In this document: piece after piece, positions 1,598 through 60,802 of the stretch
Position numbering within the stretch: the first letter of the stretch is position 1
Layout: every line of letters starts with the position of its first letter
Assembly (NCBI RefSeq): GCF_003018255.1
Contig: NZ_CP027440.1
DNA length: 64,000 bases
Strand: one strand, 5' to 3'
Source of the DNA: Escherichia coli
Lineage (GTDB): Bacteria > Pseudomonadota > Gammaproteobacteria > Enterobacterales > Enterobacteriaceae
Made by a program: the position numbers and the translations under genes
The notes under the pieces: model-generated
The model's database searches: none
The model's input: the letters and a program-made list of their open reading frames with translations, nothing else
What the model was told of the DNA's origin: nothing

Positions 1598-2950
1598 ATG
1601 TTGAAATCCCCCCTGTTCTGGAAAATGACCACCTTGTTTGGTGCAGTATTGCTGTTGTTGATTCCGATAATGCTGATTCGGCAGGTGATTGTCGAACGTG
1701 CCGATTACCGTAGCGATGTGGAAGATGTGATTCGCCAAAGTACCAGCGGGCCGCAAAAACTCGTTGGGCCGCTCATCGCTATTCCTGTGACCGAGCTTTA
1801 TACGGTGCAGGAAGACGATAAAACCGTGGAGCGGAAACGAAGTTTTATTCATTTTTGGTTACCTGAGTCATTGATGGTTGATGGCAATCAGAACGTGGAA
1901 GAACGCAAGATAGGCATCTATACCGGTCAGGTCTGGCACAGTGATTTAACGCTAAAAGCCGATTTCGATGTTTCGCGTCTTAGCGAACTCGACGCGCCAA
2001 ATATCACCTTAGGCAAGCCATTTATTGTGATTAGCGTCGGGGATGCGCGTGGTATTGGTGTGGTGAAAGCGCCTGAAGTTAACGGTACGGCGCTGACCAT
2101 TGAACCCGGCACCGGGTTAGAGCAAGGCGGGCAGGGCGTGCATATCCCTTTACCCGAAGGGGACTGGCGCAAGCAGAACCTGAAGCTGAATGTGGCGCTG
2201 AATTTAAGCGGTACCGGCGATCTTTCTGTGGTGCCTGGCGGGCGTAATAGCGAAATGACCTTAACCAGCAACTGGCCGCATCCCAGTTTTTTAGGTGATT
2301 TTCTACCAGCCAAACGGGAAGTTAGCGAGTCAGGTTTTCAGGCGCAATGGCAAAGTAGTTGGTTTGCTAATAATCTCGGTGAGCGTTTTGCTTCAGGCAA
2401 TGATACCGGCTGGGAAAACTTCCCCGCGTTTAGCGTCGCAGTGACGACGCCAGCCGATCAATACCAATTAACGGACCGGGCGACTAAGTACGCCATTCTG
2501 CTGATTGCGCTGACTTTTATGGCATTCTTTGTTTTTGAAACGCTCACCGCGCAACGTTTACACCCAATGCAATATTTGCTGGTGGGGCTGTCATTGGTGA
2601 TGTTTTATTTGCTCTTGCTGGCGCTTTCTGAACATACCGGTTTTACTGTGGCATGGATAATCGCCAGTCTGATTGGGGCGTTAATGAACGGTATTTATTT
2701 GCAGGCGGTATTGAAAGGCTGGCGTAATAGCATGTTGTTTACCCTCGCGCTGTTGTTGCTGGATGGTGTGATGTGGGGACTGCTCAACTCTGCCGATAGC
2801 GCGCTGTTGTTGGGAACCAGTGTGCTGGTGGTGGCGCTGGCCGGCATGATGTTTGTGACCCGTAATATCGACTGGTATGCGTTTTCACTGCCGAAAATGA
2901 AAGCCAGTAAAGAAGTTACAACGGACGATGAATTACGTATCTGGAAATAA
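1598..2950 (+). CDS. creD: Inner membrane protein CreD
   Basis: 450-aa ORF, multiple hydrophobic segments, matches CreD length and context. Confidence 0.95.
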   Translation: MLKSPLFWKMTTLFGAVLLLLIPIMLIRQVIVERADYRSDVEDVIRQSTSGPQKLVGPLIAIPVTELYTVQEDDKTVERKRSFIHFWLPESLMVDGNQNVEERKIGIYTGQVWHSDLTLKADFDVSRLSELDAPNITLGKPFIVISVGDARGIGVVKAPEVNGTALTIEPGTGLEQGGQGVHIPLPEGDWRKQNLKLNVALNLSGTGDLSVVPGGRNSEMTLTSNWPHPSFLGDFLPAKREVSESGFQAQWQSSWFANNLGERFASGNDTGWENFPAFSVAVTTPADQYQLTDRATKYAILLIALTFMAFFVFETLTAQRLHPMQYLLVGLSLVMFYLLLLALSEHTGFTVAWIIASLIGALMNGIYLQAVLKGWRNSMLFTLALLLLDGVMWGLLNSADSALLLGTSVLVVALAGMMFVTRNIDWYAFSLPKMKASKEVTTDDELRIWK

Positions 2951-2960
2951 GGTTGAAAAA

Positions 2961-2991
2961 TAAAAACGGCGCTAAAAAGCGCCGTTTTTTT
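2961..2991. terminator. Bidirectional rho-independent terminator between convergent creD and arcA
   Basis: Hairpin AACGGCGC-taaaaa-GCGCCGTT flanked by an A-run upstream and a T-run downstream. Confidence 0.8.
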
Positions 2992-3008
2992 GACGGTGGT
3001 AAAGCCGA

Positions 3009-3725
3009 TTAATCTTCCAGATCACCGCAGAAGCGATAACCTTCACCGTGAATGGTGGCGATGATTTCCGGCGTATCCGGCGTAGATTCGAAATGTTTAC
3101 GAATACGGCGGATCGTCACGTCTACAGTACGGTCGTGCGGTTTCAGCTCACGGCCGGTCATTTTCTTCAGCAGTTCAGCACGGGACTGAATTTTGCCTGG
3201 GTTTTCACAGAAGTGAAGCATGGCGCGGAACTCACTGCGCGGCAGCTTGTACTGCTCGCCATCAGGGCCGATCAAAGAACGGCTGTTGATGTCCAGTTCC
3301 CAACCATTGAACTTGTAGCTTTCAACGCTACGACGTTCTTCGCTGACAGTACCCAGATTCATGGTACGGGACAGCAGGTTGCGTGCACGAATAGTCAGTT
3401 CACGCGGGTTGAACGGTTTGGTGATGTAGTCATCTGCACCGATTTCGAGGCCGAGAATTTTATCGACTTCGTTGTCACGGCCAGTCAGGAACATCAACGC
3501 AACATTCGCCTGCTCGCGCAGTTCACGCGCTAACAGAAGACCGTTTTTACCCGGCAGATTGATATCCATGATCACCAGGTTGATGTCATATTCAGAGAGG
3601 ATCTGATGCATTTCCGCGCCATCTGTCGCTTCGAAAACATCATAGCCTTCCGCTTCGAAAATACTTTTCAACGTGTTGCGTGTTACCAACTCGTCTTCAA
3701 CGATAAGAATGTGCGGGGTCTGCAT
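3009..3725 (-). CDS. arcA: Response regulator ArcA (aerobic respiration control)
   Basis: 238-aa [33 protein letters not shown]...; receiver domain plus OmpR-type DNA-binding domain. Confidence 0.97.
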
Positions 3726-28214: not shown

Positions 28215-28288
28215 CCTGCCGGATGCGATGCTGACGCATCTTATCCGGCCTACAGATTGCTGCGAAATCGTAGGCCGCATCCGGCAAA
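28215..28288. repeat. REP/BIME palindromic unit pair in the lspA-fkpB spacer
   Basis: GCCGGATGCGATGCTGACGCATCTTATCCGGCCTAC and inverted GTAGGCCGCATCCGGCA match the REP consensus. Confidence 0.85.
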
Positions 28289-33307: not shown

Positions 33308-36529
<3,222 letters not shown>

Positions 36530-36789: not shown

Positions 36790-37185
36790 ATGTGTGAAGG
36801 ATATGTTGAAAAACCACTCTACTTGTTAATCGCCGAATGGATGATGGCTGAAAATCGGTGGGTGATAGCAAGAGAGATCTCTATTCATTTCGATATTGAA
36901 CACAGCAAGGCGGTTAATACCCTGACTTATATTCTGTCGGAAGTCACAGAAATAAGCTGCGAAGTTAAGATGATCCCTAATAAGCTGGAAGGGCGGGGAT
37001 GCCAGTGTCAGCGACTGGTTAAAGTGGTCGATATCGATGAGCAAATTTACGCGCGCCTGCGCAATAACAGTCGGGAAAAATTAGTCGGCGTAAGAAAGAC
37101 GCCACGTATTCCTGCCGTTCCGCTCACGGAACTTAACCGCGAGCAGAAGTGGCAGATGATGTTGTCAAAGAGTATGCGTCGTTAA
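36790..37185 (+). CDS. caiF: Transcriptional activator CaiF of the cai/fix operons
   Basis: 131-aa product MCEGYVEKPLYLLIAEWMMAENRWVIAREISIHFDIEHSKAVNTLTYILSEV... Confidence 0.95.
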   Translation: MCEGYVEKPLYLLIAEWMMAENRWVIAREISIHFDIEHSKAVNTLTYILSEVTEISCEVKMIPNKLEGRGCQCQRLVKVVDIDEQIYARLRNNSREKLVGVRKTPRIPAVPLTELNREQKWQMMLSKSMRR

Positions 37186-37214
37186 TGTCGTTTCGTTGAT
37201 ACCGTGCGACCTGG

Positions 37215-37299
37215 TCGCCGGATGCGATGCTGGCGCATCTTATACGGCCTACGGTTCCTTTCCAGCCAGGTCGGATAAGGCGTTTACGCCGCATCCGGA
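37215..37299. repeat. REP/BIME palindromic units between caiF and caiE
   Basis: CGCCGGATGCGATGCTGGCGCATCTTATACGGCCTACG plus inverted AGGTCGGATAAGGCGTTTACGCCGCATCCGG. Confidence 0.85.
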
Positions 37300-37303
37300 A
37301 AGA

Positions 37304-37894
37304 TCACCGTTTCGGCGTCACATCCGTCGTCCCCTGCAAACGGGGGCGATTTTCCTCCATTTGCCTCAGTGGCTGCGTTTCATGTAATGATGCATGACAG
37401 CGCCCGACAAGATCCTTATACTCTTTGGTATTCAACCGTTTCCAGTGTAACTCGTCGTCACTCACGCTGCGTACAGCGCGGGCTGGCGTACCCATCAACA
37501 ACTGGCGTTTCTCGCCGCGAAAGCCCGCTTTGACAAAGCTCATAGCGGCAACAATGCTCTCTTCGCCAATGATCGCGCCATCCATAATCACGCTGTTCAT
37601 CCCGACCAGTGCATCGCGACCAATCACACAACCATGCAGGATCGCTCCGTGCCCGATATGGCCGTTTTCCCCAACGATGGTGTCAGTGTCGCAGTAGCCA
37701 TGCATAATGCAGCCATCCTGAATATTGGCTCCCGCTTGCACGATCAACCGCCCGTAGTCACCACGCAGTGAGGCGAGTGGGCCGATGTAGACACCGGCTC
37801 CCACAATCACATCGCCAATCAATACTGCACTGGGATGGACAAACGCCGTCGGGTGAACCACCGGAATTAATCCCTCAAAGGCGTAATAGCTCAC
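37304..37894 (-). CDS. caiE: Carnitine operon protein CaiE (hexapeptide-repeat acyltransferase-like)
   Basis: 196-aa product (GTG start) ...[33 protein letters not shown]... with left-handed beta-helix repeats; an in-frame ATG 21 bp upstream (37915) would give 203 aa. Confidence 0.9.
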
Positions 37895-37899
37895 GGTTG

Positions 37900-38685
37900 T
37901 TAACGTCCTTTCCACACCGGATCGCGCTTCTCGGCAAACGCCAGCGGCCCTTCAATGGCATCTTCCGAATGCAGAACCGATGGATAGTGTTTCAACACGC
38001 CGCTGCGAATATAGCGATACGCTTCTTCTACCGGCATTTCGCTGGTGGTGCGGTAGATCTCTTTCAGCGCCGCAATCGCCAGTGGAGCGCTGTTAACCAG
38101 CTGCTGCGCCAGTTCGCGGGCGTTATCCATCAGTTCCGCCTGGCTAACCACGCGGTTGACTATCCCCCAACGCTGCGCCTCTTCTGCGCCCATTCGTCTG
38201 CCGGTCATCACCATTTCATTGACGATGGCAGGCGGCAGGATCTTCGGCAGACGCAGCACGCCGCCGCTGTCAGGAACGATGCCCAGTTTGGCTTCCGGCA
38301 GGGCGAAGCTGGCATTATCGGCACAAACAATAAAATCTGCCGCCAGCGCCAGTTCGAAACCGCCGCCAAAGGCGTAGCCGTTCACAGCTGCGATAACCGG
38401 TTTGTCGAGATTGAAAATTTCGGTTAATCCCGCAAAACCTCCCGGGCCAAAGTCAGCATCCGGTGCTTCGCCTTCTGCTGCCGCTTTTAAATCCCAGCCC
38501 GCGGAAAAGAATTTCTCTCCGGCACCGGTAATAATGGCGACACGTAATTGCGGATCGTCACGGAAATTTAGAAATACTTCGCCCATTTCAAAGCTGGTTT
38601 TTGCATCAATAGCATTCGCTTTTGGACGATCAAGGGTAATTTCCAGAATTGATCCATTGCGGGTCAGATGTAATGATTCACTCAT
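37900..38685 (-). CDS. caiD: Carnitinyl-CoA dehydratase (crotonase family)
   Basis: 261-aa product [38 protein letters not shown]...; the track ORF extends to 38793 (297 aa) but the conserved enoyl-CoA hydratase start is at MSESL. Confidence 0.93.
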
Positions 38686-41669: not shown

Positions 41670-41757
41670 ACTGCCGGATGCGGCGTAAACGCTTTATCCG
41701 GCCTACATTCGTGCTCCCGTAGGTCTGATAAGACGCGTCAGCGTCGCATCAGGCAGC
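41670..41757. repeat. REP/BIME palindromic units between caiB and caiA
   Basis: GCCGGATGCGGCGTAAACGCTTTATCCGGCCTAC and GTAGGTCTGATAAGACGCGTCAGCGTCGCATCAGGCA. Confidence 0.85.
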
Positions 41758-60713: not shown

Positions 60714-60802
60714 GTGTAGGCCTGATAAGACGCGGCCCGCGTCGCATCAGGCAATCGGCGCAAAATTGCCGGATGCGGCGTGAACGCCTTCTCCGGCCTA
60801 CC
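60714..60802. repeat. REP/BIME palindromic unit pair between djlA and rluA
   Basis: GTAGGCCTGATAAGACGCGGCCCGCGTCGCATCAGGC and GCCGGATGCGGCGTGAACGCCTTCTCCGGCCTAC in inverted orientation. Confidence 0.85.

What the first reader, a model, noticed from the sequence alone, without database searches (positions are those of the whole stretch)
37186..37303. caiF-caiE spacer carries a REP pair and is about 33 bp longer than in K-12
This is another REP-associated length polymorphism, here between convergent caiF and caiE. The caiE stop lies only ~5 bp from the second REP unit.
Basis: partly seen in the sequence, partly recalled or inferred. Interest (0 to 1): 0.15.

Follow-up and report, generated by a model that had tools for sequence, protein, structure and literature searches.

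The report
Ordinary REP pair in caiF–caiE spacer
The gap between the convergent carnitine genes caiF and caiE holds one pair of the common E. coli "REP" palindromic repeats and is 33 bp longer than in K-12 because K-12 has lost part of the pair; this kind of strain-to-strain variation is well known and ordinary.

Summary
The caiF–caiE spacer (37186-37303) is 118 bp, against 85 bp in K-12 MG1655. It holds two inverted REP units: a z2-type unit at 37217-37252 and a y-type unit at 37266-37298. The y stem starts 5 nt from the caiE stop codon. This is a single BIME-2-type doublet.

The locus has several alleles among 5,426 complete E. coli genomes:
- 85 bp, K-12 type: 1,895 genomes.
- 208 bp, two tandem pairs: 766 genomes.
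- IS1397 in the z2 loop, full-length or a 99-bp remnant: 135 genomes.
- The rest, about 48% by subtraction, are presumably single-pair alleles like the window's.

The K-12 form looks derived. E. whittamii and two divergent "E. coli" species representatives carry intact pairs. K-12 keeps only the last arm of the y unit, and the best alignment needs two deletions (15 + 18 bp), not one 33-bp indel.

In every genus examined, a hairpin starts 0-8 nt after the caiE stop, and it is a U-tract terminator in Proteus and Yokenella. The REPs therefore most likely act as 3'-end hairpins for the two convergent transcripts. That function is inferred, not shown.

BIME copy-number variation and IS1397 targeting of REPs are both published phenomena. 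Interest is low.

The parts
36790..37185 (+). caiF CDS (131 aa), transcriptional activator of the cai/fix operons; stop TAA at 37183-37185
   Evidence: ORF list. Homologous loci are annotated caiF (WP_000333125.1).
37186..37303 (.). caiF-caiE intergenic spacer, 118 bp (85 bp in K-12)
37207..37214 (+). Left-flank arm CGACCTGG. It is complementary to 37266-37273 (CCAGGTCG) and so brackets the z2 unit plus linker. In K-12 this pairing becomes part of one continuous long stem.
   Evidence: Inverted repeat I3; K-12 fold
37217..37252 (-). z2-type REP unit. GTAG plus the palindrome reads on the - strand (CTAC at 37249-37252 on +), so it is an iREP on the + strand. One stem substitution (TTATACGG instead of TTATCCGG).
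   Evidence: Pattern match with 1 mismatch, 0 expected by chance. About 37 nt, matching the z2 length in PMC8266576. Unit typing.
37253..37265 (.). 13-nt linker GGTTCCTTTCCAG between the GTAG ends of the two units ('type W' linker)
37266..37298 (+). y-type REP unit. Palindrome at 37270-37298. The GTAG position (37266-37269) reads CCAG, so the tetranucleotide is degenerate.
   Evidence: Pattern match with 0 mismatches; head tetranucleotide listed
37299..37303 (-). 5 nt (UCUUU on the cai mRNA) between the caiE stop codon and the first base of the y stem
   Evidence: Read from the sequence; fold
37304..37894 (-). caiE CDS (196 aa, GTG start as in RefSeq homologues); stop codon at 37304-37306; last gene of caiTABCDE

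Best explanation
The spacer holds one BIME-2-type REP doublet: a z2 unit and a y unit in inverse orientation with their GTAG ends facing across a 13-nt linker. It sits where the convergent caiF transcript and the caiTABCDE operon transcript both end.

Shown:
- Both units belong to the E. coli REP family.
- The locus is multi-allelic in E. coli.
- The window's pair is identical to the distal pair of one class of two-pair arrays.
- IS1397 has inserted into the z2 loop in some strains.

Inferred, history: the ancestral Escherichia spacer carried at least one z2-y pair. Copy number moves between one and two pairs by unequal recombination or slippage between tandem units. The K-12-type 85-bp allele arose by deletions that removed the linker and the core of a y hairpin. 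That left a z2 remnant without GTAG, fused to flanking complementary sequence as one long hairpin. The window is therefore '33 bp longer' because K-12 is shorter, not because the window gained DNA.

Inferred, function: when transcribed, the REP hairpins act as 3'-end structures. They would block 3'-5' exonucleases and attenuate read-through for both mRNAs, taking the place of the U-tract terminator found at this position in other Enterobacterales. The y hairpin lies 5 nt from the caiE stop, inside the <16-nt range in which REPs are reported to lower translation of the upstream gene. As a BIME-2 it may also bind DNA gyrase.
For: REP identity: (3 hits each in the window, 0 in shuffles). Unit lengths and BIME definitions come from PMC8266576 and PMC3333891.

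Length difference.

Allele counts: 1,895 genomes K-12 type; 766 two-pair; 135 with an IS1397 junction at this locus. The inserted sequence is annotated as an IS1397-family element. Full-length IS1397 flanked by a TGG duplication in SCU-102, and a 99-bp remnant in 118UI and VTB96959v.

Unit typing: the window pair equals the Ecol_316 distal pair (0/81 differences). The O55:H7 pair equals the H3 distal pair (0/81). Pairs within one array differ at 4-7 of 81 positions.

Polarity: intact pairs in E. whittamii (117 bp), E. coli E69 (118 bp) and SCPM-O-B-8794 (208 bp). K-12 aligns best to an Ecol_316-like array with 105 + 18-bp gaps and an identical left flank, or to the window with 15 + 18-bp gaps.

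Conserved position: a hairpin starts 0-8 nt after the caiE stop in all 32 alleles and taxa folded. In Enterobacteriaceae sp. 89, Atlantibacter, Yokenella and Proteus it is followed by a U run.

Literature: REPs <16 nt from a stop codon down-regulate translation (Liang et al. 2015, as cited in PMC12306157). [quoted passage not shown] IS1397 inserts specifically into REPs (PMC1525189).
Against: There are no transcript-end, stability or expression data for this locus, so every functional statement rests on family-level literature.

The window allele's - strand RNA does not fold significantly better than shuffles (z = -1.5); the + strand gives z = -2.9.

No U-tract terminator lies in the spacer. 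Terminator-like hairpins sit just beyond it on each strand (37331-37346 on +, 37104-37086 on -), so the real transcript ends could lie outside the REPs.

The y unit lacks GTAG. By PMC8266576 it would therefore not be a TnpA_REP substrate, so present-day mobility is unlikely.

Escherichia sp. MOD1-EC7003 has an 84-bp single-REP spacer, so a short form is not unique to the K-12 lineage and the polarity rests on few outgroups.

The share of single-pair alleles (about 48%) comes from subtraction and a 40-row sample, not a direct count.
Confidence: 0.85

Rival explanations
1. The extra 33 bp is a gain in the window's lineage. K-12's short spacer would be ancestral, and a y REP was later added next to a solitary z2 REP, for example by TnpA_REP-mediated spread.
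For: A second short allele (84 bp, single z2) exists in Escherichia sp. MOD1-EC7003. The K-12-type allele is common, at 1,895 genomes.
Against: K-12 and MOD1-EC7003 both keep the terminal y arm (CATCCGGC) without the rest of the unit, which looks like a deletion scar. Their junctions differ (AACCAGGTCG versus CTACGGGTGT), pointing to independent losses. Three other species-level Escherichia representatives carry intact pairs. The y unit lacks GTAG in all E. coli alleles sampled, and GTAG is required for TnpA_REP activity (PMC8266576).
Confidence: 0.07
2. The length alleles are functionally different regulatory variants under selection. K-12's remodelled long hairpin and the one-pair or two-pair arrays would set different cai mRNA stability or CaiE translation, tuning carnitine metabolism between lineages.
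For: K-12's spacer folds into a roughly 25-bp stem with z = -6.7 on the cai mRNA strand, against -3.9 on the other strand. Two G-to-A changes (CCGG to CCAG on both arms) give G.U pairs on the - strand RNA but A.C mismatches on the + strand. A stop-proximal hairpin is retained in every allele and genus. The <16-nt rule comes from Liang et al. 2015 via PMC12306157.
Against: Two transitions both falling the favourable way has about a 1 in 4 chance. All alleles keep a hairpin at 0-6 nt from the stop, so the proximity effect, if any, need not differ between them. BIME copy-number variation is widespread and usually treated as neutral (PMC3333891). No expression data exist.
Confidence: 0.12
3. The palindromes are simply a bidirectional intrinsic terminator and not members of the REP family.
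For: The position between convergent genes is where bidirectional terminators sit. Other genera have a genuine terminator here.
Against: No U or T run follows either hairpin in the spacer, and the terminator scan finds nothing there. Both units match REP consensus patterns found elsewhere in the window (28218, 41674-41754, 60769). The z2 unit also matches a REP near frlR in another genome (H40). The REP-specific IS1397 has targeted the z2 loop.
Confidence: 0.02

Closest known systems
BIME-2 (bacterial interspersed mosaic element, z2 + y REPs; Bachellier et al. 1994/1997; Ton-Hoang et al. 2012, PMC3333891)
   Same: A z2 and a y unit in inverse orientation with a short variable linker. Tandem copy number at the locus differs between strains (one or two pairs). 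It lies at the 3' ends of transcription units.
   Different: This window has only one copy. The y unit has CCAG instead of GTAG. The two pairs in the 208-bp arrays differ at 4-7 of 81 positions, whereas tandem copies at one locus are described as well conserved.
REP sequences within 15 nt of a stop codon that down-regulate translation (Liang, Rudd & Deutscher 2015, cited in PMC12306157)
   Same: The y hairpin starts 5 nt after the caiE stop codon, within the reported effective range.
   Different: No evidence here for ribosome stalling, tmRNA tagging or reduced CaiE. I could not check whether caiE was among the genes listed, because the paper is not held.
IS1397 insertion into REP loops (Clement et al. 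1999; Bachellier et al. 1997; summarised in PMC1525189)
   Same: Related alleles carry IS1397, full-length or as a 99-bp left-end remnant, inside the loop of the same z2 unit.
   Different: The window itself has no IS1397 sequence in the spacer.
REPIN (REP doublet forming a long hairpin; Bertels & Rainey 2011, PMC3116915)
   Same: Two inverted REPs that can pair with each other as one long hairpin. The + strand MFE structure does this.
   Different: REPINs are defined mainly in Pseudomonas as the mobile unit. Here one unit lacks GTAG, and there is no sign of recent mobility.
BIME-1 / RIB-RIP elements (z1 + y with a long L linker carrying an IHF site)
   Same: [quoted passage not shown]
   Different: The first unit has z2 length and sequence, not the roughly 29-nt z1. 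The linker is 13 nt, not the long conserved L linker.

Membership tests
E. coli REP (y / z1 / z2) | Imperfect palindrome of 30-40 nt that forms a stem-loop with a conserved internal mismatch or bulge | tested here: met
   Both units match REP consensus patterns and fold as hairpins with the internal bulge. Lengths of about 37 nt and about 35 nt fit z2 and y (PMC8266576).
E. coli REP (y / z1 / z2) | Conserved GTAG tetranucleotide 5' of the palindrome foot | tested here: inconclusive
   The z2 unit has it (CTAC on + at 37249-37252). The y unit has CCAG at 37266-37269. So one unit is intact and the other is a decayed copy.
E. coli REP (y / z1 / z2) | High copy number and extragenic location | tested here: met
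   Three copies of each pattern in 64 kb against 0 in shuffles. An extra REP hit near frlR, and 1-3 places per genome. The location is intergenic.
BIME-2 | Composed of z2 and y in inverse orientation with a short linker | tested here: met
   z2 at 37217-37252, y at 37266-37298, 13-nt linker. Definition from PMC3333891. Assigning the units to z2 and y relies partly on consensus sequences recalled from memory.
BIME-2 | Occurs as tandem copies whose number varies between strains | tested here: met
   The window has one copy. 766 genomes carry two tandem pairs at this same locus.
BIME-2 | Bound and cleaved by DNA gyrase | not testable with these tools
   Needs in vivo cleavage mapping (Espeli & Boccard 1997 is cited in PMC8266576).
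BIME-1 (RIB/RIP) | z1 + y separated by a long conserved L linker with an IHF site | tested here: not met
   The first unit has z2 length and sequence, and the linker is only 13 nt.
Translation-modulating REP (Liang et al. 2015) | REP positioned fewer than 16 nt downstream of a stop codon | tested here: met
   5 nt between the caiE stop (37304-37306) and the y stem (37298). For caiF the distance is 31 nt, so the feature is not met on that side.
Translation-modulating REP (Liang et al. 2015) | Causes ribosome stalling and tmRNA-dependent reduction of the upstream protein | not testable with these tools
   Requires reporter or tagging experiments.
Rho-independent terminator | GC-rich hairpin immediately followed by a U/T run | tested here: not met
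   No terminator-like site within 37186-37303. Outgroup genera do have one at this position.
naRNA4 (Rfam RF02564, REP-derived nucleoid-associated RNA) | Score at or above the Rfam gathering threshold | tested here: not met
   Best hit 32.2 bits against a gathering score of 59.5. This is generic REP resemblance only.

The most novel reading that the evidence does not exclude
The hairpin next to the caiE stop codon may be under selection, and the spacer alleles may not be neutral. K-12's 85-bp form is a remodelled hairpin of about 25 bp whose arm substitutions are tolerated (as G.U pairs) only on the cai-mRNA strand. Two independent losses of the y unit (the K-12 lineage and Escherichia sp. MOD1-EC7003) both kept the stop-proximal CATCCGG arm. 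On this reading, REP copy number and shape would tune cai mRNA 3'-end stability or CaiE translation between E. coli lineages.
Probability: 0.12. Interest if true: 0.3.

Novelty: already known. Interest (0 to 1): 0.08.

Why it matters
It matters little beyond annotation. It is a clean, quantified example of a BIME-2 locus showing all the classic kinds of variation in one 85-1,553-bp spacer: copy-number change, hairpin-core deletion and IS1397 targeting. It is also a reminder that K-12 is not the ancestral or the majority state at such loci; only 35% of complete genomes share its allele. Practically, the spacer could serve as a small typing marker. Anyone engineering cai/caiF expression should know that the 3' UTRs differ between strains.

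Tried and rejected
(1) I looked for REP features in the curated K-12 record, to ask whether K-12's remnant is annotated as a REP. The NC_000913.3 copy held here lists no REP or repeat features anywhere in 1-45 kb, so the absence is uninformative and I dropped it.

(2) Three papers could not be read: Liang et al. 2015 (DOI and PMC4427526), Liang & Deutscher 2016 (PMC4829296) and Eichler et al. 1996 (PMC177796). Their content is cited only second-hand, via PMC12306157 and PMC2131755.

(3) The RepRanger supplements and the Ton-Hoang supplements have no searchable caiE or caiF entry.

(4) My own dinucleotide-shuffle script hung. z-scores come from the strand folding instead.

(5) The Rfam search gave only sub-threshold naRNA4 hits.

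(6) The terminator scan found nothing in the spacer.

(7) I first read the 208-bp allele as a recent tandem duplication. I rejected that because the two pairs differ at 4-7 of 81 positions and the arrays are mosaics of three unit types.

(8) A single 33-bp indel (the MAFFT alignment) is disfavoured. Pairwise alignment prefers 15 + 18 bp even with a high gap-open cost.

Full report
**What is there.** The window region carries carB (+), caiF (+, 36790-37185) and, convergent to it, caiE (-, 37304-37894), the last gene of caiTABCDE. The spacer 37186-37303 is 118 bp. In K-12 MG1655 caiF ends at 34695 and caiE begins at 34781, giving 85 bp.

**The two palindromes are REPs.**
- 37217-37252 matches a z2-like consensus pattern with one mismatch.
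- 37270-37298, on the other strand, matches a y-like pattern with none.
- Each pattern has three hits in the 64-kb window and none in 100 dinucleotide shuffles.
- The z2 unit keeps the family's GTAG tetranucleotide (CTAC on + at 37249-37252). The y unit has CCAG at that position.
- The GTAG ends face each other across a 13-nt linker.
- The y stem begins 5 nt from the caiE stop codon.

By the published definitions this is a single BIME-2-type doublet. Those definitions are: REP y about 35 nt, z1 about 29 nt, z2 about 37 nt; a BIME is a REP plus an iREP with a linker; BIME-2 is z2 + y in tandem copies (PMC8266576; PMC3333891).

**Population picture.** The locus is present in 5,415 of 5,426 complete E. 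coli genomes. Queries spanning allele-specific junctions gave these counts:

| Allele | Spacer | Genomes |
|---|---|---|
| K-12 type | 85 bp | 1,895 (35%) |
| Two tandem z2-y pairs | 208 bp | 766 (14%) |
| IS1397 junction in the z2 loop | 205 or 1,553 bp | 135 (2.5%) |
| Remainder, presumably single-pair like the window | 118 bp | about 48%, by subtraction |

- The remainder estimate agrees with 17 of 39 locus hits in an evenly spaced sample.
- 446 genomes are >=99% identical to the window over 518 bp.
- The foreign DNA in the 205-bp allele is the first 99 bp of IS1397.
- Strain SCU-102 has the full-length element at the same loop, flanked by a TGG duplication, giving a 1,553-bp spacer. Strains 118UI and VTB96959v have the deletion remnant.
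- IS1397 is reported to insert specifically into REPs (PMC1525189).

- Type W: the window, P31_YH1, and the distal pair of Ecol_316.
- Type O: O55:H7, GD33, and the distal pair of H3, CUVET20 and OW1E2.
- Type P1: the proximal pair of every two-pair E. coli allele sampled.

The window's pair is identical to the Ecol_316 distal pair, and the O55:H7 pair is identical to the H3 distal pair. Pairs within one array differ at 4-7 of 81 positions. The two-pair arrays are therefore mosaics rather than fresh duplications. Changes between one and two copies have happened more than once, as expected for unequal recombination among tandem BIME units.

**K-12's allele is derived.**
- E. whittamii (117 bp), "E. 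coli" E69 (118 bp) and SCPM-O-B-8794 (208 bp), all separate species-level representatives, have intact pairs.
- K-12 retains the distal arm of y (GTCGCATCCGGCAAGA) but lacks the y core, and it has lost the z2 GTAG.
- Pairwise alignment prefers two gaps (15-bp linker + 18-bp y core) against the window.
- Against an Ecol_316-like array it prefers 105 + 18 bp, with the fewest mismatches and an identical left flank.
- The 18-bp gap removes the core of the y hairpin between short CG repeats. I interpret this as a hairpin-stimulated slippage deletion; that is inference.
- Escherichia sp. MOD1-EC7003 has an 84-bp spacer that lost the y unit through a different junction. I read this as an independent event.

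**Likely function (inferred).** Convergent caiF/caiE synteny is conserved from Escherichia to Proteus. On the cai-mRNA strand a stable hairpin starts 0-8 nt after the caiE stop in all 32 alleles and taxa folded:
- a hairpin followed by a U run in Enterobacteriaceae sp. 89, Atlantibacter, Yokenella and Proteus;
- a simple GCCGGATGG...CCATCCGGC hairpin in Pseudocitrobacter and some Citrobacter;
- REPs in other Citrobacter and in Escherichia.

The position is conserved while the element filling it changes. The spacer has no U-tract terminator. The most likely role of the REP pair is therefore as 3'-end hairpins that stabilise and attenuate the two convergent transcripts, in line with the roles summarised for REPs and BIMEs in PMC3333891. 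The y hairpin also meets the <16-nt criterion for REP-mediated down-regulation of the upstream gene's translation (Liang et al. 2015, via PMC12306157).

None of this is demonstrated for caiE or caiF. The - strand fold of the window allele is not exceptional (z = -1.5).

K-12's allele folds as one long stem, strongest on the cai-mRNA strand (z = -6.7). Two arm substitutions there are G.U-compatible on that strand only. This is a weak hint of selection that I rate at about 12%.

**Comparison and verdict.** Everything seen here has been described for E. coli BIMEs: a z2-y doublet, strain-dependent tandem copy number, partial decay, and IS1397 in a REP loop (Bachellier et al. 1997 and Ton-Hoang et al. 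2012, as cited; PMC1525189). The refinements are that K-12 is the shortened form and that the locus has at least five allele classes. It is an ordinary feature of low interest.

Noticed in passing
window 41674-41754: A second y + z2 REP pair (y at 41674-41702 on +, z2 at 41719-41754 on -). By offset from K-12 coordinates it lies in the caiA-caiB gap, so it is a BIME inside the cai operon transcript.
   Followed up: no
window 28218-28253 and 60769-60797: Further REP units: a z2-type copy that matches the pattern perfectly at 28218-28253 (+), and a y-type copy with 1 mismatch at 60769-60797 (+).
   Followed up: no
window 37331-37346 (+) and 37104-37086 (-): Terminator-like hairpins with T-rich tails lie just beyond the spacer on each strand, inside the 3' coding ends of caiE and caiF. 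If used, the two convergent transcripts would overlap across the whole REP spacer. The count is not above shuffled expectation (3 found against 1.4 +/- 1.2).
   Followed up: partly
L069 (E. coli SCU-102) 1994-3546; L068 (118UI) 1995-2199; L004 (VTB96959v) 501-705: IS1397 sits in the loop of the z2 unit of this same spacer. It is full-length with a TGG target duplication in SCU-102. In 118UI and VTB96959v it is a 99-bp left-end remnant that also lost 12 nt of the REP arm. The insertion points differ by 1 nt, suggesting two separate insertions.
   Followed up: partly
L009 (E. albertii NBRC 107761): The contig ends inside the last codons of caiF, right before this spacer. That fits an assembly break at repeated DNA (REP or IS) at the same locus.
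   Followed up: no
L025 (Citrobacter amalonaticus S646) spacer, 231 bp: An unusually long caiF-caiE spacer, with about 190 bp of non-REP sequence between a REP-like hairpin and caiE. Other C. amalonaticus representatives have 39-69 bp.
   Followed up: no
L008 (Escherichia sp. MOD1-EC7003) spacer, 84 bp: The y unit has been lost through a junction different from K-12's, but the deletion again ends immediately 5' of CATCCGG. The shared right breakpoint is unexplained; it could reflect a hotspot, selection or coincidence.
   Followed up: partly
window 37304-37915: The mechanical ORF for caiE extends to a GTG at 37915 (203 aa). RefSeq homologues are annotated from the GTG at 37894 (196 aa). The older literature (table in PMC2131755) lists CaiE as 203 aa.
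   Followed up: no
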